DNA of 64,000 bases from an uncultured virus (IMG/VR IMGVR_UViG_3300014836_000525) (IMGVR_UViG_3300014836_000525), one strand, 5' to 3'. Numbered from the stretch's first letter, positions 16,541-34,939 are shown. The notes: generated from the sequence alone by a model not told the origin. Translations and numbers: made by a program.

Positions 16541-19500
16541 TTATTTACCAGATCCGGCACCAAGCTGGAACCATTTAGCTGCTTCTTCTGGAGACGATGA
16601 CTTTTCTACACCAGAGATATATGGAAGTATCTTAAATGTTTTAGCTACAAACTTACTATCTCCTTTATCATGTATTCCAGATTTGTTTTCATAGTATAAG
16701 CCATCTTCATCTCCAGTTATTAAGTACGGAATCTCTTCTGTAGTAATATGGTTAATTAAATTAGCAATAGCTGTTACAGTTCTAATACTAGCCATTGGGG
16801 ACTCTACCATTTTGATAAATTCCATTGGCTGTAAGAACTGAATTAATTCAGCTTTTAATCTAAGTGCTTGATACAAAGTAAACTGCTCTGCATATGATTC
16901 TTCATCATCATCATCTCCGGCTAAGCTCATTGCAATCAAGCTAGCAGCTACAAAGAAAAATGCCTGCACTCCAAATCGTTTAATATTCTGTTTTTCCATA
17001 GGAGTCATCAGAGAATAAGCTCCTACTATATTACCATTTTTCATGTAGGCATCTTTAAACAAACGAGCTACCGAATGCATGATACCTTCACTAAGTACTC
17101 CCATCTCCATATCTCTATGCAGTCCTCCAGATAGACCTTGATGGCCCCAGTACCTACGTAATGAAGGCATAAAGTATCGTCTAAATAGCATGATTAATTT
17201 ACCGTACCATCTTCTTTGAAGCACAGCATCGTCAAACTTATTTTTAACCTGGTTTGTTTTCTTAGTTAATCCTGATATTCTTTGAGTTACTTGTCTACGT
17301 AATAGATCAGCATTAGCTACCTTAGGGTCAATCTCAAATCTTCCAGTCTTTTCATTCTTTACAAATAAATCCCATAGATGAGCTGGCTTACCTTCTTCAT
17401 TTAGAATTACATTACCATCCTTATCCTTTAGTTTACCTTGAGTAGCATGCAACAGTGCTAACATTCTAGTTACGGCCGTCTCATTCTCCACAAGCTTTTG
17501 AGCTCCCATTGGAATCTCTTTAAGCATCTTCAAAACTCGAGGCCCAGACTGTTTTCTATTAGCAATTCCTAATACGTCTTGTAATCCATCAAAATACTCA
17601 ATAGCTTGAGTAATTTTACTCACTGGAACCAATTTACCTAAATCTCTAGTCTGACTAAGTCCTCCTAGTTTTAAGTCAAATTCTTTTTTAGCCCAGAGTA
17701 AATCTTTAGCTGTCATAAACTGACCGGCAGCAGCTTCTTCAATTAGTCTTACATTATCTAGTAGTAACTGGTTAGTAACTTGAAGCATGTTAAATGCTAA
17801 GTTATTCATTGCAGTATAAGAAGCTATCTTACTTGCTAACTTAGTAGAAGATAGCTCTCTTCCAAATATATCAAAGTTCTTTTTGATATCTTCCTCTCCG
17901 TAGAATATAGTATCTATAAATTCACTTAAGTGTTTGAAGTTGTTTGATACTCCTTCTTTTTTTACAAATCTAGTTTTACTCAACATCTTTGACATTGAAT
18001 GTACTATTGGATTACCATTAGCAGCTACCTCTACTATATCTCTAGTCTGTATAGCATCTCTCATCATAGTAACAGCTCCATGTAGTTCAGATTTTACCTT
18101 GAACATATTGGCCATACCTGCAAACTGTATTATACTACTTGCTATGTCTCTACTTACTAATGATTCATCTGTTGGAGAAGTAAAGAAGATTGGAACTACT
18201 TTACCAATAGATTCTCTATTAGCATTAACTAAATCTCCGTAATTGATATCAGTAGATAGATACCCAATCTTTTCTTTAGCCTCAAGTTTAATAGTAGAGA
18301 TTGCTCCATTTCTTTGCACCTTTTCTAAAGCATCAGATAAGATTGTAGGAACTGCATAACTGAAGTTCTCCCAAGAGTTTTTAACTTGGTTAGTTTTACC
18401 TAATAGTTTCTGCTTTGCTTTATACACATTAAGTAGTGTATTGTAATATTCAAAAGCTGCAGGATTACTTTTTAAAGCCTCATACTTAGGATTAGCATAT
18501 ATCTTTGGATTGGGCTGAACAGCTCCGTTTTTAAATTGCTTTGTTACCGGGTCATAGATAAGACTTATACTAGCATTAACTGCTAGCTTCTCATCTTCGT
18601 AGTAAGCTTGTAGATCTGTGTTATTATTTTTAATTGCCTCAGCTAATTTCTCTGAAATATTTGCTTTTTTATCAAGCAGTTTTTTTAAGTTCTCTTTAGC
18701 ATCTGGACTTTCGATTGAGTTTTCCTTATACCATTCAGCAACCTTTTTATAATATTCTCTAGCTGCACTAGTTTTTGACCAGGCAGTTGCATCATCTGTT
18801 CCTCTATCAGGTTTAGTAAACTCCTTACCAAGAGCTTCATACATAGCTCTCTCAGCCTTCTTAAACTTTGTAACATCCAATGGTTGTACCATTGATAAGA
18901 TTCTCATAGTCTCTTTCTTACCAGTAGTACGATTGTACTCATAGTACTCATGTATTTCTAGAACGTCTTCATTGAAAGAGTTTACGTTTATAGCACTTCC
19001 TTTAGTCTCTGAGAATTTTCGTAAAGCTTCTCCTACTTCTACAATTGTTTCTTGAGTTACATCGTTAGCTTCATAGAACTTATTCTTAAGCATTATAGAG
19101 AATAACTGCAAAGAAACTTGAGAAGAATGTACTAGTGGATCCAGTAAATAACTAAAAGCAGACTTATCTTTTTGAGCCTCGGTTAACTCTTTAATAAGAG
19201 TCTCTCGGCCTATCTTCATATTTTGCAGCTGCTTAATATTTAGTTCTATCTTGGCTTCTTCAAACTCTTTTTTAACTTTTTCAAACTCTTCTTTTGTTAT
19301 TCTATTTTCTTTATATTCCTTAGACAACTCTTGAAATTGCTTAGCTAACTCTAGATATTCTTCATCTTTTTTAAGTGCTATAAGTCTATTGTTAGTTTTG
19401 ATATTATCAATGATTACATTGATTTCATCTTCCATGTCAGTAGCATTGTAGTTTAGATATAAATCTGCCAACATTGGAATACCTGCTCGTTGATACTTAT

Positions 19501-21226
19501 TAGCAATTATGCTCATCTTTTTAGTAGTAATAGCAATTCTTTGTTCAAAATTATTTAGCTTTTGAAAAATTGGATTGTTCTCTAAATCTTTTTCTGAAAC
19601 ATTTGCTGAGACTAAACCAAGCTTTTCATCTACTAATAATGACATTTTCCCCATCAAACTTTTATTAGGCTTAGTAAAGTCTGACTCTCCGTAGAACTCT
19701 TTAATACTTTGAGCTACTGTGTGGAGTTTATTTAAAAGTTCTAGTCTTTTATCTTCAGGTAAATCTTCAGAATATTCTCTGAGAACATTATTTATTGTGA
19801 TATCAGCCTTAGTAGCCAGTCCAACAGCATAGTCTATAAATTCAGATAGTTGCTCAATTTGCTTGATACCATCTAAGCTATTTCTCATGACATTAAGCTT
19901 AGCTAATTCAGCTTCATTACCAGCAATTGGATTACGTTCTAGTGCTGCAATCTTATTAGTAAGAGATATCTTTACTTCATCTTTAAGTTCTTCAAACTTT
20001 TTACGAAGGTCCTCAGTTCTAGCTTTACTTTTAGCCTCAAAGTATACTAACGGTTTCTGGTATATCTCAGATTTAAACTGCCCACTAAGAAGAGTATTAG
20101 TTAACTTCTCTACTGCAGATTCAGTTGTATTAAACCTTCTACTTAAAGCTCTGATTATCCTGTTGATTATCTTCTGAAAAAAGTTAGGGTTCTTTCTATT
20201 TATCTTGGCACCGGATAATCCAATAGCTGTTACAACAACTTCCTTATCCAGGTCCTCAGGACTTAGCTCAGGGTACTGTTCCTGTACAGTTTTGTAAAGA
20301 TTTGTATCTTTTAACTCAGCAATTGCAGCTTTTACAGCAGGATGATTAACTCCTAATAGTTCTACTAGTATGTGGCCAAACTCGTGAATATGAGTATCGG
20401 CCGTCATAAGAGTAGGATTAAGAATAATCCTTACTGGCTTGCCTACTTCGGCAACTACTTTTCCTTTTTCTGGAAGTTCTGTATCATATTCAAATGTAAC
20501 TTCTACTCCAGCATTTAAGAAAGCAGATTGAAAGAATGCTACTTGTGTAGCAATATCTTTAGGAGTTGTTGACTCTACATCAATGCCAACTTCTTTACTA
20601 GCATTAACATAGTAGCCAGTTACTTTGTTACTTAAAGTACTAACTACTTGACTTTTAACTACATATTGTATAAAATCACTCTCCTTTCTAACAGCATCTA
20701 TAGCTCCCGGGTTAAATTTAACCGTAGGCATTCTTAGATTAGGAGATCTTCTGAAGATATTAAAGGCCTCTATTGTAAAGTCTTCAATGTCATTTACATT
20801 TGAAAACTGAAGTTCATCTCTACGTTCAAGACTTTGAAGAGCTTCATTATCAATAGATGCATAATACTTATATCCTGGAGTTTGTTTATTTAGAAACGTA
20901 ACTTCTGACATACCTGCTGGTAAAACCTCTAGTTTGGTATTAGTTGTAACAGCTCTGATTACTAGTGGAGGTCTAATAGCACCATAACTTGCCATCAAAA
21001 TACCATTTAGTTCTCCTAGTATTTCCATAGGTCTAGTAGTTCTGTAAGTATTTATTTCTCCAGAGGAAGTTACTAATCCTGCAGTTTGTAATGGCTCTAG
21101 TAGTTTCCTATATTCAATTACCCCACCAAAAGATGTTTGATCATCTAAGTAATTTAAAACCTTATTTAATACTGGATCAATCGACACTGACCCATCATTG
21201 TTTATATTTCTAATTGTACAGCTCAT
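16541..21226 (-). CDS. giant virion (ejected) protein with a zincin-like HExxH domain
   Basis: 1561 aa; HEFGH at 20372-20386 with a downstream Glu (DKEVV); near-C-terminal hydrophobic helix; adjacent to the RNAP gene as in crAss-like phages. Confidence 0.7.
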   Translation of the reverse strand: MSCTIRNINNDGSVSIDPVLNKVLNYLDDQTSFGGVIEYRKLLEPLQTAGLVTSSGEINTYRTTRPMEILGELNGILMASYGAIRPPLVIRAVTTNTKLEVLPAGMSEVTFLNKQTPGYKYYASIDNEALQSLERRDELQFSNVNDIEDFTIEAFNIFRRSPNLRMPTVKFNPGAIDAVRKESDFIQYVVKSQVVSTLSNKVTGYYVNASKEVGIDVESTTPKDIATQVAFFQSAFLNAGVEVTFEYDTELPEKGKVVAEVGKPVRIILNPTLMTADTHIHEFGHILVELLGVNHPAVKAAIAELKDTNLYKTVQEQYPELSPEDLDKEVVVTAIGLSGAKINRKNPNFFQKIINRIIRALSRRFNTTESAVEKLTNTLLSGQFKSEIYQKPLVYFEAKSKARTEDLRKKFEELKDEVKISLTNKIAALERNPIAGNEAELAKLNVMRNSLDGIKQIEQLSEFIDYAVGLATKADITINNVLREYSEDLPEDKRLELLNKLHTVAQSIKEFYGESDFTKPNKSLMGKMSLLVDEKLGLVSANVSEKDLENNPIFQKLNNFEQRIAITTKKMSIIANKYQRAGIPMLADLYLNYNATDMEDEINVIIDNIKTNNRLIALKKDEEYLELAKQFQELSKEYKENRITKEEFEKVKKEFEEAKIELNIKQLQNMKIGRETLIKELTEAQKDKSAFSYLLDPLVHSSQVSLQLFSIMLKNKFYEANDVTQETIVEVGEALRKFSETKGSAINVNSFNEDVLEIHEYYEYNRTTGKKETMRILSMVQPLDVTKFKKAERAMYEALGKEFTKPDRGTDDATAWSKTSAAREYYKKVAEWYKENSIESPDAKENLKKLLDKKANISEKLAEAIKNNNTDLQAYYEDEKLAVNASISLIYDPVTKQFKNGAVQPNPKIYANPKYEALKSNPAAFEYYNTLLNVYKAKQKLLGKTNQVKNSWENFSYAVPTILSDALEKVQRNGAISTIKLEAKEKIGYLSTDINYGDLVNANRESIGKVVPIFFTSPTDESLVSRDIASSIIQFAGMANMFKVKSELHGAVTMMRDAIQTRDIVEVAANGNPIVHSMSKMLSKTRFVKKEGVSNNFKHLSEFIDTIFYGEEDIKKNFDIFGRELSSTKLASKIASYTAMNNLAFNMLQVTNQLLLDNVRLIEEAAAGQFMTAKDLLWAKKEFDLKLGGLSQTRDLGKLVPVSKITQAIEYFDGLQDVLGIANRKQSGPRVLKMLKEIPMGAQKLVENETAVTRMLALLHATQGKLKDKDGNVILNEEGKPAHLWDLFVKNEKTGRFEIDPKVANADLLRRQVTQRISGLTKKTNQVKNKFDDAVLQRRWYGKLIMLFRRYFMPSLRRYWGHQGLSGGLHRDMEMGVLSEGIMHSVARLFKDAYMKNGNIVGAYSLMTPMEKQNIKRFGVQAFFFVAASLIAMSLAGDDDDEESYAEQFTLYQALRLKAELIQFLQPMEFIKMVESPMASIRTVTAIANLINHITTEEIPYLITGDEDGLYYENKSGIHDKGDSKFVAKTFKILPYISGVEKSSSPEEAAKWFQLGAGSGK

Positions 21227-21271
21227 CGTAATTTTTCTTTATGAATGTAAAAATACACCATTCTTTAGATA

Positions 21272-24200
21272 TTATATACAAGTATTAATCGTATTGTCAG
21301 TATAAGGCTTAACTTCTGTATAGTCATCTATCAATGACATCGATGCTACATCTAGTATAAGAGTATCCTCAACAGTACGTGAAGGAATACTATACACTGT
21401 CCGTTCAGCAAAGAACGAAGGTAGTATCATAAACCTAGTCATAAGTCCTTTATCTGTTTCTACTTTCTGATTTGTAGCCATTCCTACATACAATTTGTTC
21501 TCATCCCCTTTTATTGCAACAAACTTATTATCAGACTTAAGTAGTACTGCTTTAGAAGTAGCTGTAACATTCTTATTTGAAATTCTCTTCAGTAATGGAC
21601 GGCCTCCAGCTTTTGCTAATCCAAATAGTTGCATGTACATTGTAACTTTTTCACTGTCAAAGTATGCAGGAGATAATAACTCAGACCTCTTAGCATATAG
21701 GAAGTTACTAATACTTGTAGATACAACTTCTTCTTTAAGAGTCTCACTGTTAATTACCTTATGTCTTAAAGGCATTGTCCAAAACTCTTGAGGAATTAAC
21801 TCTGCATAGCTAGAAGCTCCTGGTCTAAATCCAGAAGTCAGAATAGTATTCATAACTAAATCCATAGCAAGCTCTTTCATTCCCATTACCATAGTACTTA
21901 CTTCTGGTATAAGGAATTTACCATCTGGTCCAATGGTCTTATCAGCATCAGGTCTATCAATGTACACCTGAGGATTAAACATCAGAGTTCTTAAGGCAGT
22001 TGTAAATGCTTCTTTATCATTCTTAGTATACTTGAATGAATTGTCAAACTTAATACCTGAATAAGAAGTTCCAGTAATATCTGCTTCCAAAGCAGCTATA
22101 AACTTATTAGTTTCTAGTTTTGGATATAACTTTTTAAAGAGTTCTAGTCTTGTAGCAATATTAGTCTCAGGATTTATAAATGCTCTATTTACATTATCAG
22201 CAGTAAAGAATTTGTATAATGGAGAGTCTGGCTCCATCAGCAACATCAGTGTCAAGTTGCTGTCAATTAGTTGGTGAGTCTGTGATGTAAGAGATACTTG
22301 GCCAGATAACTCTTTTACATTTGCTTTAAATGTAAGATATGCTGGACTTAATTTTAATGGGAACATAACCGAAGCTACATCTAGTGCAGCTCCTAAGATA
22401 CTTTCATATCCTCTTTCAAATCCATAAACAGAATTTTTACCAATAAATTGATCAGCCACATTCTCGTATCCATTAGGAGTTAAGAATACATTTCTTTTAG
22501 CATTTTCATCTTCCTCCTGACCACTTTCAAAGGCATTTGAAGAATCTTTAAATTCTAAGATATTTCCAATCTTACCAACACTTGCTATGTTGTCTGGTGT
22601 TACCCTTTTACCAAGTTTGGAAAGGCTTTTACCAGCAGTATAGAAAGCTTTAAAGTTTGCTAGCATAATCATTTGTTCATGCCAGTTTCTTCCTTCAGAT
22701 TTAATGTTCTCTAACTCAGTAGATAGCATTGGAATAACTGTATCTCCTTTTAAACTTAGGTTATACTTAGTATCCAATCCTCTCACAGTTTTAGAATCGA
22801 TTAATGTTAGAGCAGTACTAGGACTATCTTTAGATGCTTTGTTAGCTTGAACACGTGCCCACTGGAGAGACTTATCAAAAGCATCTTGTATAAATCTACC
22901 ATCATTCCCATACTCATTAGCCATTACTTCAGTAAAGTATCTTACGATAGGCTGGTTAAATAAGTTGGTGGCAGTTCGACCATTGTACTCCGGAATAAAG
23001 TTAGCAAACAATATTCTTACAGGTGCTGTAATAACATTGTCGTTAAGTTCGTATTGAACAGCTCCCTTAGCAGCATCTAGAGATTCTCCTAATAATGTAG
23101 CAAGAGTTTTATCTGTGAATATTCCGTCGGCTGTGGTAGTTAAAAATTTATTGTAGACAGTAGGAGCTTGTCCAGGATTCATAATAGCTGGAGCAAAACT
23201 ATTACTTAGTATTATTTCTCCATGATGTAGTACGTTTCTGTGTGCAATACCATTTGCATAGATACCACGGAGTTGGTTACCGGCTTGGTTTCTAAGCATA
23301 ATCTCAGACTCTGTTAAAACATCATTCCAATCTTGAGTCATTGCTAACTCAGGCTTTTGACTTCTAACATATTGTACTTCTTGCTTTAAAGTAACATCAT
23401 CTAGTGGAGAGAATGTTTCGAAGAAGTGAGCAGCATTAGTGCCTACTGCTTCAAATGTATCCCATACAATATTGTTCAAAGCTTTTTTAGTAAACACAGT
23501 CTTATCAGTCAAAGCAGCAGCTTTATTCTTGTTACCTATCAACTTTGAATAGTCTGGTCTAACTTTTCTAATACTAAATGGATACTCTGCAGTAGGAGTA
23601 GTTGGTTCTACTTCTGGGAAAAGAAGATTCAATTTATCGACGTCAAAGTCAGATCCCATCATCTTAAGAAGTTGGCCAGGGACTACTACAGCTTTTGGAT
23701 AGTTCATAGGTAAGAACCTAACTATCTTAGCCATAAGCACGGCACTCTTCTCACCATTAGGAGTTCTATATCCGACAGCTCTTAGTAGTTCTTCTGGAAT
23801 TGAATCTAGAGGTTGCCCAGGTTCTACCCCAAATCTACGAGCTACGTCTTCTCTAATCATTATCTCAGCATGCACTATTTTAGATCTACCCTTACCATCT
23901 TCTTCAATTCTAAGGAACTTAAGTTCATTATCTATTGCATGGCCTCCAAGGTCAGCAACCTGTACTGCCTCTAGTCCACTCATCTTTTGTACAAATACCT
24001 CTTTCTGAAGTATTGACATTATTATAGATTCGTACTTAGCTCCATAAACTGGAAGGTCTAGTGGTATATTAAATCTAGGCATACCAGACTCATCAAATAC
24101 AATATGTAAAGCATTGATATAATTAGAGTGCATGTCACTACCGATCATATCAGTTTGAACTAGATCTCTAACAGTCTTTAATACATCTAATCTAGCTTGT

Positions 24201-27200: not shown

Positions 27201-28648
27201 TTTGGTTCAGGATTTTCAACTCTACTAAGTAACTCTTTTACTTTACCAGTTAAAGCTTTTGATGGAGAACTTTCTAAACTGCTCTTACCATATATCTTCT
27301 CTACAGCTGTATCATTAATTGAAAGTTCATTCTCAATTGCTGCTGCCTCTTCCTCAGATAATTCTTCAGCACTAAGGTCTTCTCTTATAAGTTTATAATT
27401 TTTATTAGAGGTACCTTTAAGTGTATAACCAGAATCTTGTAAAGAAGTAATTACATAATCTCTCCAACCTACTTTTAATACGTTCTCAGTTGTAGGATCT
27501 ATTTCTGTATACCAGTCGTTGTAAATACTTTTAAAAGCACTTCTAATAGACAACTGATTTCCCAGTGCCATAACAGCATTATACTTTTGCAATCCTTGTT
27601 GTAAAGCTTCTTTTGTCTTTTGCTTTTCTTCAGGAGTAGTAGCAGCATAGAAAGCATTCTCAAGTCCTAGTAATTCAATACTTTGTGCTACATCTAAGTT
27701 AGTATCTTTATCTAAAGCTGGATCCCCTGTAAGTTCTTTCTTTACTTTGTACAGTCTTTTTATAAAAGAGTTAGCAACAGAACCTTTATTAGTAGCACTA
27801 TCTCCTACAATCCTATCTATCTCAGCTTGCTTTCCAAAATCATTAGCAGCTTTTAAAATGTCAGTCTTAAGAGTTGCTACAGTATCTGCAAACATCTGAT
27901 CTCCCCAACCTTCCTTCTGCATAAAGGCTGTATTGTACCCTTTAAATTTCTCAGAGTTTCTAAAGATATTTCTAGAACCGAAAGACTTGCTCATCTTATT
28001 GCTGTCAATCAACGAGTAAGCCTGCTTTAGACTAAGACTATCTGAGAATAAAGCTTTAATCCAATTCCATAGATTCTTAAACCACGACTTAGTTTTACCT
28101 GTAAGTGTTTCTCCAGAAGCTTGCTCAGTAAGAACATACTCTCTAAATTCTTCGGCCATCTTCTCCTCTAATGCTAGAAGTCGTGCTTCAGACTTACTTA
28201 TAGGAAATTGATTAGCTAGTTTATTTACCTCTGCTTCTGTAGGTTCTCCAAACTTAGTAGCGGCCTCTGAGTACAATTCAGTTCTTTGAGCTTCACTAAG
28301 CATTGTTCTAAATACAATGTGATATGCTTCGTGATACTCAGTGCCAATCTCTGCAGCTCTCCATAAATACATAGAAGAATTTTCTACATATCCATGAACA
28401 GTACTGTTTCCAACCTCTCTAACTGTGTCATAAAACTCAACAGCCATTTCAGGAAATCTATCCTCAAGCCATTTCTTAGCTCGTTGTTCGTTAACTGTTC
28501 CTGATCCAGATTCTCCAAGTTTTACTTTATAGAACTGTTGTGGAACCTCACCTTTGTAGGCATCCCACAAGTAGTGAGCAATTGAATCACCTTGGACAGA
28601 AGCCAAGTCTTTGTACTCCTTAGAGCTAACATTAGGACAAAATTTCAT
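21272..28648 (-). CDS. virion-packaged single-chain RNA polymerase (crAss-like, phi14:2 gp66 type) with an N-terminal zincin-like domain
   Basis: GYRTP…GSDFDVDKL catalytic DxDxD motif at 23636-23650; TDAQAF; HEAYH…EEKMAEEF near the N-terminus; 2458 aa. Confidence 0.9.
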   Translation of the reverse strand: MKFCPNVSSKEYKDLASVQGDSIAHYLWDAYKGEVPQQFYKVKLGESGSGTVNEQRAKKWLEDRFPEMAVEFYDTVREVGNSTVHGYVENSSMYLWRAAEIGTEYHEAYHIVFRTMLSEAQRTELYSEAATKFGEPTEAEVNKLANQFPISKSEARLLALEEKMAEEFREYVLTEQASGETLTGKTKSWFKNLWNWIKALFSDSLSLKQAYSLIDSNKMSKSFGSRNIFRNSEKFKGYNTAFMQKEGWGDQMFADTVATLKTDILKAANDFGKQAEIDRIVGDSATNKGSVANSFIKRLYKVKKELTGDPALDKDTNLDVAQSIELLGLENAFYAATTPEEKQKTKEALQQGLQKYNAVMALGNQLSIRSAFKSIYNDWYTEIDPTTENVLKVGWRDYVITSLQDSGYTLKGTSNKNYKLIREDLSAEELSEEEAAAIENELSINDTAVEKIYGKSSLESSPSKALTGKVKELLSRVENPEPNLLGFTTFYNREDIYMQLLQIFNNKHSYSEMEAALKNAIPFKPYLKPVLEFMQKLKAPEKAMLFNAFALTTTEFLIMKKRITPNKDIVVDIFNPNRKSASEKLVDRWKKNTVTKGDANPKALYNEVDITTADNVTVTRLVVKEDKVLEVQRLVKDLESRLLNVRDIRRIPTVKREDGSTSDIAKLLGELAFALNLTVDTSASVESTQQAMQALLNAGFNTITEKGAAITYSDVALAQKIAKDLRFFALKLANFKSTGDLKTNDYSSVGEIVDYNITSDFVTDSKRDIYRFSEYYTPMINIVGESFVASDGTQRFATNVQSHMNEIVTILKNKGLTKEADKTYEMYLEDPFIGALGNKDYQSILFRFLQEDPNFRDKFTVEDFDAYRESDFFDDISNYEDLTMLDSLVVRLNGFINGGKATDTVRIAVSVQSDRNKYSFLILPRLTSKLSGEVLSKEKIIKGQIVQDLLRVAKAKKDIAKAEETNDRTDIIVGYHEQGGIFKDANNTYLGKAFNPAFFQFTAKDDNGVQIVTDEVIGDDKLQDNGTKQLSDLIEKYVTGKLGKEETALVTERLNTMAAKLLTYFSAQADKVEKLVQLQDNRIGFNTKDKAEKRKVIEGFVFTEAIMRNEMVKVFRGNRAMSKDLVDFYKRMGHLTSPGAKYAMKGEVGAPNWRKSLEYGMLPEYNEVTVADLKLNINKAQTDRVNAAAKAVGDSLRKVANKETDPIARANNLKLADSIEQAYQAGSFDSTDAQAFISIEMYRGLMEGEGKWGEEEEKAYKAYKAAPAGQKIFAYQEGFVPTGFNAGDRVPVYPIKTYYERITSIGGTVAPISEKNSYSVSLEEFTKDYPVLDDMRNRMEGTGVYKNLTPIHVVNFVSGKKLAKRSIYKITGVPGEFSNAVFTTNDSRGLRKSQTIPEVKENPTITVSKQIKKNMVANVKDTTTYSYNSGLSEETDVSGKDLKEIFHVTLEEKIRRDIKAVETKLKIPQLLAAEKSGVTKDIVQARLDVLKTVRDLVQTDMIGSDMHSNYINALHIVFDESGMPRFNIPLDLPVYGAKYESIIMSILQKEVFVQKMSGLEAVQVADLGGHAIDNELKFLRIEEDGKGRSKIVHAEIMIREDVARRFGVEPGQPLDSIPEELLRAVGYRTPNGEKSAVLMAKIVRFLPMNYPKAVVVPGQLLKMMGSDFDVDKLNLLFPEVEPTTPTAEYPFSIRKVRPDYSKLIGNKNKAAALTDKTVFTKKALNNIVWDTFEAVGTNAAHFFETFSPLDDVTLKQEVQYVRSQKPELAMTQDWNDVLTESEIMLRNQAGNQLRGIYANGIAHRNVLHHGEIILSNSFAPAIMNPGQAPTVYNKFLTTTADGIFTDKTLATLLGESLDAAKGAVQYELNDNVITAPVRILFANFIPEYNGRTATNLFNQPIVRYFTEVMANEYGNDGRFIQDAFDKSLQWARVQANKASKDSPSTALTLIDSKTVRGLDTKYNLSLKGDTVIPMLSTELENIKSEGRNWHEQMIMLANFKAFYTAGKSLSKLGKRVTPDNIASVGKIGNILEFKDSSNAFESGQEEDENAKRNVFLTPNGYENVADQFIGKNSVYGFERGYESILGAALDVASVMFPLKLSPAYLTFKANVKELSGQVSLTSQTHQLIDSNLTLMLLMEPDSPLYKFFTADNVNRAFINPETNIATRLELFKKLYPKLETNKFIAALEADITGTSYSGIKFDNSFKYTKNDKEAFTTALRTLMFNPQVYIDRPDADKTIGPDGKFLIPEVSTMVMGMKELAMDLVMNTILTSGFRPGASSYAELIPQEFWTMPLRHKVINSETLKEEVVSTSISNFLYAKRSELLSPAYFDSEKVTMYMQLFGLAKAGGRPLLKRISNKNVTATSKAVLLKSDNKFVAIKGDENKLYVGMATNQKVETDKGLMTRFMILPSFFAERTVYSIPSRTVEDTLILDVASMSLIDDYTEVKPYTDNTINTCI

Positions 28649-28660
28649 CGTAGTTTATTA

Positions 28661-31600
28661 TTATTTAGGTCCACACTGTCTTCTTATTTCTTCTCCAAGA
28701 TCGGCTGCAATGTTAGGGTCCATTGAGTCAATGTCCATACCAGAGTAACCTTCTAAGTCAGCAAGTGTGGTACCGGCTGGTACAGCAAATCTAGCAAATT
28801 TATCGAGTGGATCAGTACTTACAGCAGCAGGATTTGCTACTTTTTCTACAACATTACTTGTAGTAACAGAAGTTTGTATAGTTTCAATTTCTTCTCCAAA
28901 TAAATCTGATAAATCCTGAGCATTATCAGTAGGAACAGATGCAGTATTTGCAACTACTGTAATTGTAGTTGGAGTAGCTACTGTAGGTTGAGAGACTTGA
29001 GTAGCTGGCAGAGTAGCAGGTTTACCTTTTAAAGCAGCTAGTTCTTCAGCATATTTAAAAGTGCTTGTGATATTACCATTTCTTATTTTTTGTCTTTGAA
29101 ATTGTTCAAATAATTCTTGATCATTTAAATCAAAACGTCCTCCAGCTCCTATTTTAAAATCCCATAAACCTTTTGAATTTCTTCTTGCTCTACCAACATA
29201 TGTACCGTCAGATATTATTATTTCATCTTTATTCTCTATATCATCTAATTGGATAGGCTCTCCTTTTCCTATAGTTAGAGTTGTATTTAGATCTATTTCT
29301 CCATTTTCATTAGTTCCATATATTACTGTTCTAGTAAGTTGTTTTAAATCTTCTTGTCTTCTACTTTCTATGTCAGCTTTAGCATCTGTAGTAGCAGCTG
29401 CTGCAGGAACAGTTACCGGCTGAATAGCATTAACTAATGCCGTAGCTTCCAAATCCTCTTCAGTTGTAACTGGCTTCTCTACAGTAGAGATATTATCAAA
29501 ACTTAATCCTACATTATGAAATACTGAACCATTACTTATTAGTGTAGAATCTGTAGCTAGGATTGCATTAGATCCTGTGCCAAAGTCTCTCGGAGTTAGA
29601 ACTTCTCTTTCAGAAGATAGATAGTCTAAGTATGATGCATACTCCAATCCAGTTAATGGAGAAGTAAATGGATTGTTAGCAGATAATCTATCAAAGTTAA
29701 CTTCAAACTTTTTAGTTTTTAAAGCTGCTTTAAATTCATCTCCAATTACTTTCTCTACTGCTGCATAGTTAGTATCTTCTTTTCTAACATTCTTGAAGAC
29801 AACACTACCATCCTCAATAGTAGATTCTACAAATGAGAACTTAGGTGTTTGTCCACTTAATGCTTTACTTAATTCTGCACTTGAGATTTTAATAAGAGAG
29901 TTAGCTTCGTTACTCCAGAATGTGTACAGTACATCTAAGTTTTCAGTTATACTAGTCATCATGAATGTACGACTATTCTCTGGGTGAACTGCTACTTTAC
30001 CCTCTTCCTCAGTACTGATAATATTAGAATCAAGAGATGCAGTAGGTACTCTTACGATATTAAAACCTACAATATCTTCTACACTACTAATATTCTCTGG
30101 GTTATTAGCTGTAATTAATTCCACTACTTTATTAACAGCTTCATCAGTCATGTCTCTAGTAGATAGATGGATGACTTTATGAGCTCCAGTAGGATCTAAT
30201 ACTACAGCTGCTATTTGACCAGGAGTTTGTCTAGTGATATCAATAGGATTACTAGTTGCTATATTCTCCTCGTCCTCTGCACTTAACTCTTTACCAGGAA
30301 GTCCTACAGATTTCCACCTTACCCCAGAATCTTCTTTTTTATCAAGTCCAATAAATGCTAATCCAACAGTAAAGCTATTCTTATCTCCAATAATAGTAGA
30401 TACAGGAGAGAAAAATATTTCTCCATCTTTAGTTCTAAGATTAGCAATATTACTTGAAGTAATATTTTTCTCTTTAATAGTACTCATTGGAGTAAGTCCT
30501 TGTAGATATAGTTTATATATCTCCTCTCTAGCACTTCCTTTTCTTTGAGCTCTAGTAGCATTATAACTCTGCAACAAACCTACTTTATTTCTCTCACCAC
30601 TAGGACTAACAGATATCACAAAGATTGGAACATCTTTCCAATGCTCATCTTCTGGAATAGTATTCTTATTTACATTCCAGTAATCAGTTTCTGTATCTAC
30701 TTCAAATATGACAGTAGAGCCATATTCTAAGAAGTATGGATCAGATACAAGTGCAGAATCAATACGAATTGCTTCTCCATTTTTAGTAGGAATATGAGAA
30801 TTAGGTCTAATGGTACCATCAGGATTAACTAGTACTTTATTAGCACCATCTTCTTTAATCATTTCAGAACTTAATGGAACTAACTGCACATCTAAAGTTC
30901 CTGTAAAGTTTACAACTACTGGAGCATCTAGATCAACTAGTGGTCCTACTACCTCTTCACCTTCAGGTGCTGTAACAGGTAAAGTAGACACAGCTGAATT
31001 AGCTGCTTCTGCTTTCTTTTTCCTAAGTTCTTGAACTTCCTCTTGATTTATTCCGTTGGCTATCGGGCCTTCGATTCCTGTTGAAGGATTGATATCTGCT
31101 CCTGGAGTGTCTTGTTCTTCAACCGTGCCCTCAACTCCTTCGGTATTGCTACCTTCTTGATTGCGTCCTTCAGACTCAATGTCTTCATTGATTTTATTTA
31201 TTAAGTTTTTACGTTTGGTTATCTTAGCTTTTATAGTTCCAATCTTTTTATTCAAAGCTTTAAGAACTAAGTCTGCCTCTTCTTGAGTTGGAGCCTCTCC
31301 GTACTTACCATCAATTCTCTCTTGGTAGAAGCTTTTCTCTTTTTCAAGTTTAGCAATATCTGCATCAAGATTCTCAATCTCTTTATTAAGAGTATTAATA
31401 GTATGCTGAGCTTCAGTAAAAGTTGGAACTTGCTCGATCTGCTCTAGATCTTTAGTAATAGGAGTTAATCCTCTTATTATTTTTAACCCTGCTTTTCTAG
31501 CAGCAAGTATTTTAATCTTAGAATTAAGAGCTTTAGTGTATCTAGTTCTAATCTTCTTAAGATCTTTGATTAATGGGTCAGCATCAAATTCTTTTCTAGA

Positions 31601-34600
31601 AAACCCAGCTTCTTTAGCTAGCTGCCATTCTAGTTCTAATATGTTACTAACCTCTGCAATTTCAGCTTTTAAAATTTCAATCTGAGTTCTAATTTGAGAA
31701 TCAGATAGTTTGATAGTTTGCTTTGGAGAAAACATAGCCCTATCTTCTTCAGATTCTGGTACGTTATTCTCATCAACTACTACAGCATCTTCTATCTTTA
31801 GAATTTGCACACTGTCTTGAATTGCAGCTTCTGCCTTTATAGCATTCTCTTCTTTAACTTCCTCAACACTTACTGTTCTATCGTATCTGATAGCATTATC
31901 TTTGAGGAGTATAAGGTAAGACAGACTTTCTACAATAGCATTTTCCTTCTCAGCTTCTGGAGTAAAGTTCGGGTCATTTGGATCCGTCTTTTTAAATGTA
32001 ACAATATTACCAGTAGCTGTATCGAGTAAGCTAATGCCGATTATGTTTCCCTCTTGATCCAATACAATTGCATCTAGTGGATTATCCTGCATAAAGAAAT
32101 ACTCTCGGCCGTTAATTTCCAAGTAATTCTCATCAGCAGAAAGCATAACCTCTCCAAAAGTTCTAGCTTCAATATCTGTAAGTTCAGATATAAAGTTAGT
32201 TTCTCCTGGTTTATTTCTATTTTCTTCTTGTTCTTCTTCAGAGATAGTAATTTGCTTACTAAGAGCTTTCTCAGCTTTAGCATCTTCTCTTTTATACAAA
32301 GATCGTCTGTAAGCATTTTGAAGATTTGGAGGTAATCCTTCTTCATCAATTGCTTCAAACTCAGTATCATCCATTAAGTCAAATGCTTCTACTTGCTTAT
32401 CCTCTTCTTCTAAAAGCTTTTCTCTTTTAGCTCTAGCCTCTGCTTTTAATTCACTACTAGCCCCTTCTGGGAAGTTAGTATTCATTTCTTCAACAGACTC
32501 AGCATTATCTATAATAGACCTAGCTTCAGCATCTCTTGCAAGTTGATCCTCTTCTTTAATTCTATTAGTCTCGTTCTCAATAAAAGCTTCTAAAGCTTGT
32601 GTAGATGATGTTAGAATACCCACATTAGTATTCAATGCAGCTCTAGCTCCTACTAAACTCTTTAAGTTTTTAAAAGTAGCTTGAAAAGCATCCCTATCTA
32701 TTGGGTTTAATGTAGCAATAGCATTTGATAACTCTTGAATTTCTTTCTCTAATTTCTTATCAGCTACTTCAACGTCATTAGCATATTTAATCTTAAGTTT
32801 ACCAGTGTCGTCAATTGATAGTTCTCCAGTCTTTATCTTGAATAGCATGTCTGGAGTAACAAGTCCGGTAACTCTTTCTAGGTTAGGAATACCTTCACCT
32901 AGTTTTTGTAGGTCCTTATAAGCTTCTCCAATAGATGCATCTAAACTATCGATATCTGATAAGTGATGTAATACTACATTGGCACCAAATCGTCTAAGCT
33001 GAGCAGCCATAGATTTTTTAGTATTAGCATCTACATCAGTACCTAGGCCAAACATCTTATCTACAAGGTTTGTAGTAGGCTCATATCTTTGTAAGATAGC
33101 TCTTACTTGATCCTGACGTTTAATAGATAGTTTAGCCTTAGACTTAACATCCTCGATAAGTTCAGACTGAGTTTTACCAGTTTGTTCTTGAAGACTAACC
33201 TCTTTTTTATATCCAAATCTTTCAATAAACTCTGCTTCTGGCATTGCCTGTAAGTCATCTAACTGCTCATTAAAGTAGTCCATAGCTCCCAAGGTATTGT
33301 ACCTGTTAGCCATTGAACTAATAATACGAGCTCTATACTTTTCTGCAGCTGCATAATCTCCTCGATTATTTGCATTAATCATCTTAGCTTGGTAAGATAG
33401 ATTTAGCTCAGTCTGCTCCATATTCTCAAGAGCTTTCTGGATTCCACCACTATTTATAAGCTCCATAGCTTTTGTAGTGTTAGATTCTTTTCCAGCTGCT
33501 ATCTTTTTCTGAGCTCCTGCAAGTCTAGACATAGCTGTAGAACCACCTCCGACAATTGCTCCAATAACTATACTTTCTAAACCTTCTTTAGTTCCAAAAG
33601 TTTTAGACAATCCTTTGTTAATAGATTCAATCATTCCATCAGTTGTCCCTACGTAGTTTCTAGCAAACTCAGAGCCGGCAAACTGTGCAGCTTCTTGGAA
33701 AGATTCTGATAAAGAATTTCCAACTATTGGTTTAAGAAGTCTAGCAGATTTAGCAAAACTTTTTGCAATTTTTCCTTCAGGAACAGATTGAAGCCATTTA
33801 GCTTCTCCTTCAACAGCAGCTTGTTTAGTTAATTTAAACATGCTTTTTTCTGTTGCCTTCTCAATTCCCAGCATAGTCTTACCAAACATTAGTAAGTTGG
33901 TAGTAGCTAATATTGGAAGGTTAATAGCAAAGTCAATGTTACCTGCACTGTAAGCATCAGCTGTAATTTGATCCATAACTTCAGAAGGCATTTCCTTACC
34001 GTAGTTTTCAGCTTTACTTTCCCACTCAGATTTCTTTTCCTCTATATATCTCTTCTTTGTTTCTCGAGCTTCCACAGAGGCTTCTGCTAAAGACATTTGA
34101 GTACCAAGCATAGCATGCCTTCCAGCAGTAAAAGACTTGGCAACTCTAGCTTGACTGTTAAGAGTCTTAGCTAGTTTAGCCATATCTTCTCCGGCATCAA
34201 TACCTTTAACGGTACGATACAGCATGTTTTTAGTAGCATTTGCTCCTTCGACAGCAGTTAATAAACCGGCACCTTTACCTCCCATAGTACCAAGCTTAGT
34301 AATTAAAGCTGCTTCCCCAGTACCAATAAGCATAGTTGCTATTGATCCTAAAGTGTATCCAGCTCCATTAGCTACTTTATCTGCCCAGAAGTTCATAGTT
34401 CCCATATTAGACAAAATAGAATCTGTCTCTTGTTTATGGGTATAGTAGTTAGGCATTTCTTTTTGTGCCCACTCGTTAAGAGAATCGATACTTCTACCTA
34501 CAGGATTATCATAAAAGCTTCCATTTCCAAAAGCCATATTACCTAACCCTGCAACTAATCCAATAGTATTCTCAGCAAAAGCTCCTCCAGCTGTAATTGT

Positions 34601-34939
34601 AGCTTTAGCTATACCATGAAGAAACTGTTCACCAGCTCCTTGATTCTGAGCTCTAGTTTCATTCCAATCTGTGAATGGATTTAATGGTACTCCATAATCC
34701 ACGTAAGAGGATATAGGATCTGTATAGACATTAGTTAAGTCTATGCTAGCACGTCTATCAGCTAGTGGATCTCTAGTACCTGTTCTATAGTTAGGAGTAG
34801 GTAATTCTTTTGGAGCTATTCCAGATATTAATGACAGGAAATTTTGCTCTCCACTAACAGGAGGTTCTTTAGCTGCATTAATATCTACGTCTGGTAATCC
34901 AGTAAGTTTACTTAAGAAGCTATTTGAAGTATCACTCAT
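28661..34939 (-). CDS. giant virion cargo/ejection protein
   Basis: 2092 aa; Gly/Ala-rich hydrophobic N-terminal segments and coiled coils; upstream of the RNAP gene. Confidence 0.7.
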   Translation of the reverse strand: MSDTSNSFLSKLTGLPDVDINAAKEPPVSGEQNFLSLISGIAPKELPTPNYRTGTRDPLADRRASIDLTNVYTDPISSYVDYGVPLNPFTDWNETRAQNQGAGEQFLHGIAKATITAGGAFAENTIGLVAGLGNMAFGNGSFYDNPVGRSIDSLNEWAQKEMPNYYTHKQETDSILSNMGTMNFWADKVANGAGYTLGSIATMLIGTGEAALITKLGTMGGKGAGLLTAVEGANATKNMLYRTVKGIDAGEDMAKLAKTLNSQARVAKSFTAGRHAMLGTQMSLAEASVEARETKKRYIEEKKSEWESKAENYGKEMPSEVMDQITADAYSAGNIDFAINLPILATTNLLMFGKTMLGIEKATEKSMFKLTKQAAVEGEAKWLQSVPEGKIAKSFAKSARLLKPIVGNSLSESFQEAAQFAGSEFARNYVGTTDGMIESINKGLSKTFGTKEGLESIVIGAIVGGGSTAMSRLAGAQKKIAAGKESNTTKAMELINSGGIQKALENMEQTELNLSYQAKMINANNRGDYAAAEKYRARIISSMANRYNTLGAMDYFNEQLDDLQAMPEAEFIERFGYKKEVSLQEQTGKTQSELIEDVKSKAKLSIKRQDQVRAILQRYEPTTNLVDKMFGLGTDVDANTKKSMAAQLRRFGANVVLHHLSDIDSLDASIGEAYKDLQKLGEGIPNLERVTGLVTPDMLFKIKTGELSIDDTGKLKIKYANDVEVADKKLEKEIQELSNAIATLNPIDRDAFQATFKNLKSLVGARAALNTNVGILTSSTQALEAFIENETNRIKEEDQLARDAEARSIIDNAESVEEMNTNFPEGASSELKAEARAKREKLLEEEDKQVEAFDLMDDTEFEAIDEEGLPPNLQNAYRRSLYKREDAKAEKALSKQITISEEEQEENRNKPGETNFISELTDIEARTFGEVMLSADENYLEINGREYFFMQDNPLDAIVLDQEGNIIGISLLDTATGNIVTFKKTDPNDPNFTPEAEKENAIVESLSYLILLKDNAIRYDRTVSVEEVKEENAIKAEAAIQDSVQILKIEDAVVVDENNVPESEEDRAMFSPKQTIKLSDSQIRTQIEILKAEIAEVSNILELEWQLAKEAGFSRKEFDADPLIKDLKKIRTRYTKALNSKIKILAARKAGLKIIRGLTPITKDLEQIEQVPTFTEAQHTINTLNKEIENLDADIAKLEKEKSFYQERIDGKYGEAPTQEEADLVLKALNKKIGTIKAKITKRKNLINKINEDIESEGRNQEGSNTEGVEGTVEEQDTPGADINPSTGIEGPIANGINQEEVQELRKKKAEAANSAVSTLPVTAPEGEEVVGPLVDLDAPVVVNFTGTLDVQLVPLSSEMIKEDGANKVLVNPDGTIRPNSHIPTKNGEAIRIDSALVSDPYFLEYGSTVIFEVDTETDYWNVNKNTIPEDEHWKDVPIFVISVSPSGERNKVGLLQSYNATRAQRKGSAREEIYKLYLQGLTPMSTIKEKNITSSNIANLRTKDGEIFFSPVSTIIGDKNSFTVGLAFIGLDKKEDSGVRWKSVGLPGKELSAEDEENIATSNPIDITRQTPGQIAAVVLDPTGAHKVIHLSTRDMTDEAVNKVVELITANNPENISSVEDIVGFNIVRVPTASLDSNIISTEEEGKVAVHPENSRTFMMTSITENLDVLYTFWSNEANSLIKISSAELSKALSGQTPKFSFVESTIEDGSVVFKNVRKEDTNYAAVEKVIGDEFKAALKTKKFEVNFDRLSANNPFTSPLTGLEYASYLDYLSSEREVLTPRDFGTGSNAILATDSTLISNGSVFHNVGLSFDNISTVEKPVTTEEDLEATALVNAIQPVTVPAAAATTDAKADIESRRQEDLKQLTRTVIYGTNENGEIDLNTTLTIGKGEPIQLDDIENKDEIIISDGTYVGRARRNSKGLWDFKIGAGGRFDLNDQELFEQFQRQKIRNGNITSTFKYAEELAALKGKPATLPATQVSQPTVATPTTITVVANTASVPTDNAQDLSDLFGEEIETIQTSVTTSNVVEKVANPAAVSTDPLDKFARFAVPAGTTLADLEGYSGMDIDSMDPNIAADLGEEIRRQCGPK

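What the first reader, a model, noticed from the sequence alone, without database searches (positions are those of the whole stretch)
16541..34939. Cysteine 'daisy chain': three giant ejected proteins carry Cys only at their abutting termini
Seen by manual scan: the 2092-aa protein has one Cys, 4th from its C-terminus (RRQCGPK*, 28673-28675). The 2458-aa RNAP has two, at residue 4 (MKFCPN, 28637-28639) and the penultimate residue (NTCI*, 21278-21280). The 1561-aa protein has one, at residue 3 (MSCT, 21218-21220). That is 4 Cys in 6111 aa, each at a gene-order junction, and the two outer termini have none. Known: injected proteins such as the N4 virion RNAP are Cys-free. Inference: C-to-N disulfides (or shared metal sites) link separately translated proteins into one ordered chain. 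It could be packaged stoichiometrically, threaded through the tail in sequence, and released in the reducing cytoplasm. I know of no description of such a mechanism.
Basis: partly seen in the sequence, partly recalled or inferred. Interest (0 to 1): 0.85.

Follow-up and report, generated by a model that had tools for sequence, protein, structure and literature searches.

The report
Terminal cysteines chain crAss cargo proteins
Three giant proteins that this crAss-like phage most likely packs into its particle and injects, with the RNA polymerase in the middle, have no cysteine except one at each end that faces the next protein; relatives keep this rule wherever the genes are separate and lose it where they are fused, which points to untested end-to-end disulfide links.

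Summary
Genes A (2092 aa), B (2458 aa, DFDVD RNA polymerase) and C (1561 aa) hold 4 Cys in 6111 residues, at A-2089, B-4, B-2457 and C-3. The two outer termini have none.

It is not chance. In 60 lineages of relatives, 63 of 64 same-strand junctions between such giants carry a Cys on both sides. In 8 of 8 lineages where the A-like gene lies convergent on the other strand, it still ends in Cys. Seven complete fused polyproteins (5005-5639 aa) have no Cys at all. crAss001, phi14:2 and p-crAssphage obey the rule. The A|B break lies before the zincin domain here and after it in crAss001, yet both breaks carry the pair.

Best reading: near-terminal disulfides tie A-B-C into one ~681 kDa thread. This is inference; no chemistry was tested.

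There is a solved precedent in an unrelated phage. In cyanopodophage A4, gp27 Cys1715 is bonded to gp26 Cys5 (PMC12002296), and these are the only Cys in those two proteins.

This scan has already reported the same rule on other crAss-like genomes. I found no paper describing it for Crassvirales.

The parts
28661..34939 (-). Gene A, 2092 aa (228.9 kDa), first giant of the chain. Its N-terminal part is homologous to crAss001 gp47. Its only Cys is residue 2089.
   Evidence: blastp crAss001 gp47 87-509 to A 94-463, E 6e-26
28673..28675 (-). TGT codon of A Cys2089, 4th residue from the C-terminus (..RRQCGPK*)
21272..28648 (-). Gene B, 2458 aa (275.9 kDa): N-terminal module, then a zincin-like region, then the two-barrel RNA polymerase. 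Cys only at residues 4 and 2457.
28514..28648 (-). N-terminal junction module of B (residues 1-45, MKFCPN..IAHYLWDAYKGEVP). Cys4 (28637-28639) lies in an extended arm ahead of a small helical hairpin.
   Evidence: Alignment A4: M1, C4, P5, N6 and L15 are invariant in 19 sequences. AF2 model: pLDDT 72.6, residues 1-9 non-helical, helices 10-19 and 21-30. The module is separable: it heads C-like proteins in A+B-fused lineages.
28319..28333 (-). HEAYH (HExxH) motif of the zincin-like region, B residues 106-110
   Evidence: B 52-186 matches crAss001 gp47 2098-2219, E 3.6e-10; no Pfam hit
23636..23650 (-). DFDVD catalytic motif of the RNA polymerase, B residues 1667-1671
21278..21280 (-). TGT codon of B Cys2457, the penultimate residue (..NTCI*)
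16541..21226 (-). Gene C, 1561 aa (176.4 kDa), last giant of the chain, homologous to crAss001 gp49 and phi14:2 gp65. Its only Cys is residue 3.
21218..21220 (-). TGT codon of C Cys3 (MSCT..)
34959..37310 (-). Upstream 783-aa Cys-free protein. It is not part of the chain (no terminal Cys). Its homologues are Cys-free in the relatives whose upstream ORFs were listed.
37314..40790 (-). Upstream 1158-aa protein with two internal Cys (869, 881) and no terminal Cys. It is not part of the chain.

Best explanation
A, B (the virion RNA polymerase) and C are homologues of the crAss001 cargo proteins gp47, gp50 and gp49. I propose that in the particle they are joined head to tail by two disulfides, A-Cys2089 to B-Cys4 and B-Cys2457 to C-Cys3. 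This would give one nearly linear thread of 6111 residues (about 681 kDa) that mimics the single Cys-free polyprotein of other crassviruses.

Shown by sequence: the proteins have Cys only at the inner termini, and the pair tracks every gene break.

Known from the literature: the homologues are packed in the capsid cargo zone, must partly unfold to leave through the tail, and crAss001 virions do contain intermolecular disulfides. One unrelated podophage has exactly this bond in its solved pre-ejectosome.

Inferred: a short C-terminal tail docks on a small N-terminal module of the next protein, and oxidation locks the pair. Because each Cys sits 0-5 residues from a terminus, the side stubs are tiny and the chain can still pass a narrow channel. 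The absence of other Cys prevents wrong cross-links. The link would give equal copy numbers and a fixed order of exit. The reducing cytoplasm would then cut the links and free the polymerase.
For: (1) The window itself: 4 Cys in 6111 aa, all within 4 residues of the four inner termini.

(2) Tally over 60 lineages, clustered at 70% identity on the RNAP core (23 clusters at 50%). Both-sided Cys within 20 residues of the ends is seen at 63 of 64 same-strand junctions. The one miss, L020, has a TAG inside the upstream frame, and its continuation ends ..KKCK. Cys is usually at N-terminal position 3-6 (62 of 63) and at C-terminal position 0-3 from the end (56 of 63).

(3) Controls. Cys appears at 3 of 44 other junctions: two are truncated chain ORFs misfiled by my length rule, and one is a non-chain neighbour. 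It appears at 3 of 42 outer N-termini and 1 of 54 outer C-termini, and each of these is explained by a partner being cut off or lying outside the locus.

(4) Fusions. Seven complete polyproteins of 5005-5639 aa (38,138 aa in total) have 0 Cys. A+B fusions such as L026, L029 and L030 (4177-4392 aa) and the B+C fusion L002 (3780 aa) have no Cys at the fused joint.

(5) The effect is at protein level. In 8 of 8 crAss001-type lineages the A-like gene is convergent on the other strand and still ends in Cys. The pairs persist across 226-629 nt inserts. Terminal Cys codons are TGT 125 and TGC 19.

(6) The breaks are not homologous. Here the A|B break precedes the zincin region. In crAss001 and p-crAssphage the HExxH motif lies near the end of the upstream protein (gp47 at 2157 of 2341; gp45 at 1743 of 1957), and for gp47 that region also aligns to the window's zincin. 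Both kinds of break carry the pair.

(7) Named phages obey the rule: crAss001, p-crAssphage, phi14:2, cr1_1, cr3_1, cr125_1, cr271_1 and cr128_1.

(8) Cys is the only invariant residue besides Met1 in 44 non-CPN N-termini, and the only invariant residue in 19 C-terminal tails. No second metal ligand is conserved.

(9) In the one comparison made (split L071 and L102 against fused L068), the roughly 65-aa N-terminal module of the split C-like protein has no counterpart in the fused polyprotein.

(10) Literature passages I read. gp47, gp49 and gp50 are virion cargo that must partly unfold, and disulfides are seen in the crAss001 tail and in gp57 (PMC10172136). The A4 gp27 Cys1715-gp26 Cys5 disulfide is seen by cryo-EM (PMC12002296). 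In the A-4L record these are the sole Cys of a 1717-aa and a 1114-aa protein encoded by adjacent genes.
Against: There is no chemical or structural evidence for the bond in any crAss-like phage. The cargo RNAP proteins were not resolved in the crAss001 reconstruction.

Sequence cannot tell adjacent heterotypic pairing from homotypic pairing (A-A, B-B) or from pairing with another virion protein.

The infected cytoplasm is reducing and many hosts are anaerobes, so when and where oxidation would occur is unknown.

Cys avoidance is relaxed in gut lineages: L107 has 21 internal Cys and L124 has 16.

Positions are looser in two cases: L110 at N+20 and L111 at C-14.

In the IAS virus record, gp055 ends in Cys but gp056 has no N-terminal Cys. 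That record has ambiguous bases and overlapping ORFs.

p-crAssphage gp47 (857 aa) has an orphan Cys at C-1 with no N-terminal partner in the next gene.

Lineage counts are not independent events, and I built no tree.
Confidence: 0.68

Rival explanations
1. The terminal Cys do form bonds, but not with the neighbouring protein in the chain. They could make homodimers (A-A, B-B, C-C), close B into a ring (Cys4 to Cys2457), or anchor each protein to another virion component.
For: Sequence alone cannot assign partners. crAss001 virions contain several kinds of intermolecular disulfide, including a homodimeric one in gp57. p-crAssphage gp47 has a lone near-C-terminal Cys with no adjacent partner.
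Against: Outer termini of the chain essentially never carry Cys, so termini as such do not need one. The number of C-terminal Cys equals the number of N-terminal Cys at every break. Both vanish together at fusions. Two-protein architectures leave only the adjacent pairing or homodimers. The two halves of the CPN-type junction (tail ..LGYSPxEIGxILKxIC and head MATCPNKN..) occur together at different places in the chain. In A4 the solved bond is the adjacent one.
Confidence: 0.14
2. The two Cys at each junction share a metal ion, or a cluster formed between several copies, rather than forming a disulfide.
For: Bridging metal sites between chains exist in other systems (recalled: the Rad50 zinc hook). 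Several copies of each protein may be packed (the authors' example of 6 copies).
Against: Each side offers a single invariant ligand. No His, Asp or second Cys is conserved in 19 tails, 19 CPN heads or 44 other heads. The A4 structure shows a disulfide.
Confidence: 0.06
3. The Cys serve a ligation chemistry: a thioester at the C-terminal Cys is attacked by the N-terminal Cys, making a true peptide bond between the proteins.
For: Only the geometry: a Cys at or next to the C-terminus and a Cys near the N-terminus of the next protein.
Against: No Hint or intein domain is found (no Pfam hit). The Cys lie 0-5 residues from the ends, which leaves no room for one. The N-terminal Cys is at position 3-6, not position 1. 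There is no precedent.
Confidence: 0.02
4. The pattern is a by-product of nucleotide-level signals at gene boundaries, or is due to chance or shared ancestry.
For: The genes abut (12 and 45 nt gaps), and both starts are preceded by ..TACGATGA...
Against: The rule holds with convergent genes, with long inserts, with overlaps and with both Cys codons. It holds at breaks that are not homologous. P of at least 63 of 64 by chance is about 1e-97 at 0.9% Cys.
Confidence: 0.01

Closest known systems
Cyanopodophage A4 (Anabaena phage A-4L) pre-ejectosome proteins gp27 and gp26 (PNAS 2025, PMC12002296; passages read)
   Same: Two adjacent genes encode large ejection proteins. The upstream protein (1717 aa) has its only Cys 2 residues from the C-terminus, and the downstream protein (1114 aa) has its only Cys at residue 5. 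Cryo-EM shows the C-terminal helix of gp27 inserted in gp26 and a Cys1715-Cys5 disulfide.
   Different: There is no detectable sequence similarity to A, B or C (all blastp E above 1). It belongs to another family (Saffermanviridae). It has one bond between two proteins and no RNA polymerase. The paper does not treat the bond as a general rule and does not use the word cysteine. For the crAss proteins no structure exists.
crAss001 gp47/gp50/gp49 and phi14:2 gp67/gp66/gp65 (Crassvirales virion RNA polymerase block)
   Same: They are homologous to A, B and C and follow the same Cys rule. In crAss001, gp47 has only Cys2339 of 2341, gp50 has Cys5, Cys1334 and Cys2404 of 2412, and gp49 has only Cys5. 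In phi14:2 the Cys are at 1797 of 1797; at 3 and 2179 of 2180; and at 3. They are found in virions by mass spectrometry.
   Different: The A|B break is placed after the zincin region in crAss001 and before it here. crAss001 gp47 is on the opposite strand. The papers I could search do not mention these Cys: the Drobysheva preprint has 0 hits for 'cystein', and the Bayfield paper mentions disulfides only for the tail and gp57.
Cys-free ejected giants of Schitoviridae (N4 gp50, DEV gp71; PMC11445570, passages read)
   Same: A giant virion RNA polymerase is ejected into the host and Cys is strongly suppressed. The fully fused crAss polyproteins (0 Cys in 5005-5639 aa) look the same.
   Different: It is a single chain with no junctions, so there are no terminal Cys. 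The polymerase is of another class (T7-like in N4, recalled; two-barrel here).
Interchain disulfide of AB-type protein toxins (recalled, not tested here)
   Same: It works in a similar way: a single disulfide tethers two chains during passage through a narrow pore and is cut in the reducing cytosol to release the active part.
   Different: The proteins and the biology are unrelated. In toxins the two chains arise by cleavage of one precursor, whereas here they are separately translated.

Membership tests
Crassvirales virion RNA polymerase / cargo block | Two-barrel RNA polymerase with a DFDxD catalytic motif in a giant protein | tested here: met
   DFDVD at B 1667-1671. The core profile A2 hits PDB 6vr4 (phi14:2 gp66) at E 1.2e-37. 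tblastn matches annotated crAss RNAPs.
Crassvirales virion RNA polymerase / cargo block | Flanking giant partner proteins homologous to gp47-like and gp49-like proteins | tested here: met
   A against crAss001 gp47, E 6e-26. C against crAss001 gp49, E 2e-31, and against phi14:2 gp65, E 1e-32.
Crassvirales virion RNA polymerase / cargo block | Zincin-like metalloprotease domain in the block | tested here: inconclusive
   HEAYH is at B 106-110, and B 52-186 matches the HExxH-bearing end of crAss001 gp47 (E 3.6e-10). There is no Pfam or PHROG family hit for it.
Crassvirales virion RNA polymerase / cargo block | Position at the end of the structural module of a crAss-like genome | tested here: met
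   Terminase, portal, major head protein and virion structural proteins lie upstream on the same strand.
Crassvirales virion RNA polymerase / cargo block | Proteins present in the virion and ejected | not testable with these tools
   Known only for homologues (crAss001 and phi14:2 mass spectrometry).
Head-to-tail disulfide-linked ejection proteins (A4 gp27-gp26 type) | Upstream protein's Cys near the C-terminus, downstream protein's Cys near the N-terminus, and the proteins otherwise Cys-free | tested here: met
   Window. A-4L: gp27 only Cys1715 of 1717, gp26 only Cys5.
Head-to-tail disulfide-linked ejection proteins (A4 gp27-gp26 type) | Physically observed S-S bond | not testable with these tools
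   Needs non-reducing gels, disulfide mapping or cryo-EM of a crAss-like virion.
Head-to-tail disulfide-linked ejection proteins (A4 gp27-gp26 type) | Sequence homology to A4 gp27 or gp26 | tested here: not met
   All blastp E values are above 1 against A, B, C and the two upstream proteins. This is a likeness of mechanism, not of family.
Split inteins / protein trans-splicing | Hint-domain fragments at the C-terminus of the first protein and the N-terminus of the second | tested here: not met
   No Pfam hit in A, B or C. The Cys lie 0-5 residues from the ends, leaving no room for intein fragments.

The most novel reading that the evidence does not exclude
A covalent thread may be a general requirement of protein ejection by podophages, arrived at independently in unrelated lineages (Crassvirales and Saffermanviridae). 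Whatever is injected as a giant must leave the capsid as one continuous chain. Every evolutionary break of that chain would then have to be repaired by a near-terminal disulfide plus a small docking module. The bond would double as a redox switch that releases the RNA polymerase and its partners only once they reach the cytoplasm.
Probability: 0.35. Interest if true: 0.85.

Novelty: new variant of a known kind. Interest (0 to 1): 0.7.

Why it matters
Crassviruses are the most abundant phages of the human gut, yet how they pack and eject several megadaltons of cargo, including their RNA polymerase, is unresolved. These proteins were not visible in the crAss001 reconstruction. A simple sequence rule now predicts the topology of that cargo: one thread, in the order A-B-C. 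It explains why lineages can switch between a single polyprotein and two to four separate genes. It also offers a cheap decisive test on phages already in culture, namely reducing versus non-reducing gels and disulfide mapping. The rule is a practical annotation aid as well. A pair of terminal Cys marks true gene breaks, as opposed to frameshifts or recoded stops, and identifies members of the chain even where sequence similarity is lost.

Tried and rejected
(1) Complex prediction of the last 80 aa of A (alignment A3) with the first 70 aa of B (alignment A4) gave no verdict (score 0.21, mark 0.32). It counts neither for nor against binding.

(2) Foldseek of the AF2 model of B 1-70 against the PDB found nothing (best E 7.3).

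(3) Pfam found no family in A, B, C or the two upstream proteins. PHROGs gave only an unnamed family for A.

(4) phmmer of A, B and C against PDB sequences gave 0 hits. Only the RNAP core profile found 6vr4.

(5) The window's own assembly is not held. The nearest record, G001, is a 48-kb fragment with no thioredoxin match, so I could not tell whether this phage encodes a redox enzyme.

(6) Literature searches for a description of the rule in crAss-like phages found none. The hits for 'cysteine' were unrelated by their titles and abstract openings; I opened none of them.

(7) I considered and rejected translational coupling or another DNA-level signal, start-codon misannotation, and split inteins. 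Reasons are given under the rival explanations and the membership test.

(8) Nine loci without a match to my RNAP motif pattern (L006, L008, L027, L028, L039, L044, L050, L051, L126) were left out of the tally. L006 and L008 nevertheless show the pair.
Full report
**Observation**

A (28661-34939, 2092 aa) has one Cys, at residue 2089. B (21272-28648, 2458 aa) has two, at residues 4 and 2457. C (16541-21226, 1561 aa) has one, at residue 3. All four codons are TGT, and the outer termini have no Cys.

Other ORFs of at least 100 aa in the window hold 0.88% Cys, so about 54 Cys would be expected in 6111 residues. The chance that four random Cys each fall in their own 4-residue inner-terminal window is about 4e-12.

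**What the genes are**

The window is a crAss-like phage. Terminase, portal, major head protein and structural genes lie upstream on the same strand, and a replication module lies on the other strand.

B carries DFDVD (23636-23650), and its core profile finds the solved phi14:2 gp66 polymerase, PDB 6vr4, at E 1.2e-37. A matches crAss001 gp47. C matches crAss001 gp49 and phi14:2 gp65. According to passages of PMC10172136, gp47, gp49 and gp50 are virion cargo assigned to the capsid cargo zone and must partly unfold to leave through the tail. They were not resolved in the map.

**Relatives**

The first relative found (L001, 40% identity) has the same four Cys: A' at its last residue, B' at 4 and 2964 of 2968, C' at 3. 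I then gathered 131 loci from viral and metagenome contigs. In 122 of these loci, and in the window, an ORF matched the RNAP motif. These 123 sources fall into 74 clusters at 90% identity, 60 at 70% and 23 at 50% on the RNAP core. The nine loci without a motif match were left out of the tally.

Taking one representative per 70% cluster and a 20-residue window at each end gave the following:

- 63 of 64 same-strand junctions between chain proteins have Cys on both sides.
- The single miss, L020, has a TAG inside the upstream frame. The continuation of that frame ends ..KKCK, right before MTCT...
- N-terminal Cys positions are 3 (25 cases), 4 (20), 5 (14), 6 (3) and 20 (1).
- C-terminal positions, counted from the last residue, are 0 (18), 1 (22), 2 (11), 3 (5) and 4 to 14 (7).
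- Of 44 other junctions, 3 have a Cys. Two are 5'-truncated chain ORFs that my length rule misfiled (L063, L076). One is a neighbouring non-chain protein (L119).
- Of the outer termini, 3 of 42 N-termini and 1 of 54 C-termini have a Cys. In each case the partner is truncated or lies outside the locus (L063, L076, L107, L081).
- Internal Cys make up 0.051% of 317,183 chain residues, mostly in gut lineages.

**Fusions**

Gene architecture varies widely: A|B|C, A+B|C, A|B+C, A+B|x|C and fully fused.

- Seven complete fully fused ORFs of 5005-5639 aa (L061, L067, L068, L070, L072, L075, L118) contain no Cys at all.
- A+B fusions such as L026, L029 and L030 have a single Cys, at the C-terminus. The B+C fusion L002 has a single Cys, at residue 4.
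- p-crAssphage is A|B+C: gp45 ends ..SFSCM and gp44 starts MSCG, with no Cys at gp44's C-terminus.

**The effect is at protein level**

In crAss001-type genomes the A-like gene lies on the opposite strand, convergent to gp49. The A-like protein still ends in Cys in 8 of 8 such lineages, and in 15 of the 16 loci I listed. In the sixteenth, L107, no convergent ORF was found within the locus. Pairs persist where 226-629 nt separate the genes (L064, L079, L117, L122). Both Cys codons are used: TGT 125 and TGC 19 at termini. Gaps range from 4-nt overlaps to 45 nt.

**The breaks are not homologous**

Here the zincin-like region (HEAYH at B 106-110) follows the A|B break. In crAss001 the homologous region lies at gp47 2098-2219, before the break. 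In p-crAssphage the HExxH motif is at 1743 of the 1957-aa gp45, also before the break. Both kinds of break carry the pair.

**Junction anatomy**

Two flavours of junction appear.

- In the first, a tail ..LGYSPxEIGxILKxIC* meets a head MATCPNKNLxEWKxL..IAYYLWDKYxGxVP.
- The window's A|B junction is a divergent form of this flavour (..ADLGEEIRRQCGPK* | MKFCPNVSSKEYKDL..IAHYLWDAYKGEVP).
- Both halves occur together at the A|B break in L016 and at the (A+B)|C' break in L003-L010.
- In the second flavour, a tail ending ..C plus 0-8 residues meets a head MxC(K/T)(Y/V).. followed some 8-12 residues later by SxL(Y/F)xxL.

Cys is the only invariant residue in 19 tails. In 44 heads of the second flavour it is the only invariant residue apart from Met1. 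In 19 CPN heads the invariant residues are M1, C4, P5, N6 and L15. So no second metal ligand is conserved.

An AF2 model of B 1-70 (pLDDT 72.6) puts Cys4 in an extended arm before a two-helix hairpin. In the one fused-versus-split comparison I made (L068 against L071 and L102), the fused chain runs from the B-tail homologue straight into the C body at about residue 66 of the split protein. The N-terminal module therefore has no detectable counterpart there.

**Named phages**

- crAss001, phi14:2 and cr128_1 (Steigviridae), p-crAssphage, cr3_1 and cr271_1 (Intestiviridae), and cr1_1 and cr125_1 (Suoliviridae) all obey the rule. cr125_1 has many in-frame stops under table 11.
- phi14:2 is as clean as the window, with 4 Cys in 5398 aa.
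- In the IAS virus record the gp056|gp057 pair is present. However, gp055 ends in Cys while gp056 has no N-terminal Cys. That record has ambiguous bases and overlapping ORFs, and I could not read gp058 because the feature was cut. I leave IAS as unresolved.

**Interpretation**

The simplest account of a Cys pair that appears at every break, wherever the break lies, and disappears whenever a peptide bond is present, is that the pair replaces the peptide bond. That means a disulfide between the C-terminal end of one protein and the N-terminal end of the next.

Three published observations make this plausible.

- crAss001 virions contain intermolecular disulfides (tail hubs, ring proteins, the gp57 dimer).
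- Suppression of Cys is a known trait of ejected proteins in N4-like phages.
- Cryo-EM of cyanopodophage A4 shows the C-terminal helix of gp27 inserted in gp26 and a Cys1715-Cys5 disulfide. I checked the A-4L record: the two genes are adjacent, gp27 (1717 aa) has only Cys1715, and gp26 (1114 aa) has only Cys5. These proteins show no sequence similarity to A, B or C.

The functional consequences remain inference: equal copy numbers, a fixed exit order with tiny side stubs, and release by reduction in the cytoplasm.

**Weaknesses**

- No chemistry or structure exists for any crAss-like phage.
- Partner identity cannot be read from sequence.
- The time and place of oxidation are unknown.
- Gut lineages tolerate many internal Cys (up to 21 in L107).
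- p-crAssphage gp47 has an orphan Cys at C-1.
- I counted lineages, not events.

**Novelty**

I found no paper stating the rule for crAss-like phages. The Drobysheva preprint has no occurrence of 'cystein'. The Bayfield paper discusses disulfides only for the tail and gp57. I could not see the extended tables of that paper.

The A4 bond is a published precedent for the mechanism, which I learned of through earlier notes of this scan and then checked myself. The scan has already reported the same rule on other crAss-like genomes. This window is therefore a further, very clean instance, not a first sighting.

Noticed in passing
L020:7543-7545: A single in-frame TAG interrupts the RNAP ORF of this relative, and the frame continues for 204 more codons to a ..KKCK end. 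The annotated giant genes of cr125_1 (L137) hold 38-78 in-frame stops under table 11. This is consistent with the stop-codon recoding reported for some crAss-like phages.
   Followed up: partly
window 37314-40790 (-): The upstream 1158-aa protein has two Cys 12 residues apart (869, 881). Homologues keep a close pair: L013 at 283/296, L014 at 137/149, L026 at 348/353. This could be an internal disulfide or a metal site, and it is unrelated to the chain.
   Followed up: no
L053 (BK010471.1) gp47, locus 30141-32714 (-): p-crAssphage gp47 (857 aa) has a single Cys at the penultimate residue (..GKQSCR), but the next protein, gp46, has no Cys. It is an orphan terminal Cys with an unknown partner.
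   Followed up: no
L064, L079, L117, L122 junction gaps: Inserts of 226-629 nt sit between chain genes that still carry the Cys pair. I did not examine what the inserts encode.
   Followed up: no
L001:9311-18217: In this relative the 45-aa N-terminal module of B is separated from the zincin-like region by an insertion of about 540 aa (B' 3-45 and 588-2921 align to B 2-40 and 46-2420). This shows that the module is an autonomous unit.
   Followed up: partly
window 28649-28660 and 21227-21271: Both downstream start codons are preceded by the same short context (..CTACGATGA.. and ..TTACGATGA..). This may be a shared initiation context. It was not tested against chance.
   Followed up: no
L053 7046-7324 (+) and L140 7014-7259 (+): p-crAssphage (gp39, plus a truncated gp37) and cr128_1 (gp059) are annotated as encoding thioredoxin-like proteins. 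A phage thiol-disulfide enzyme could bear on making or breaking the cargo links. None was found in the 48-kb record nearest to this window.
   Followed up: partly
L007:21719-27646, L010:21704-25201, L119, L129: The gene after the chain in these relatives starts M-x-x-x-C-S-x-x-x-C and, in L007, holds 55 Cys. It is a Cys-rich protein right next to the Cys-free block and is clearly not under the same constraint.
   Followed up: no
window 7629-11613 (+): Two adjacent genes match the RIIA-like and RIIB-like lysis-inhibitor families (E 7e-17 and 1.6e-9).
   Followed up: no
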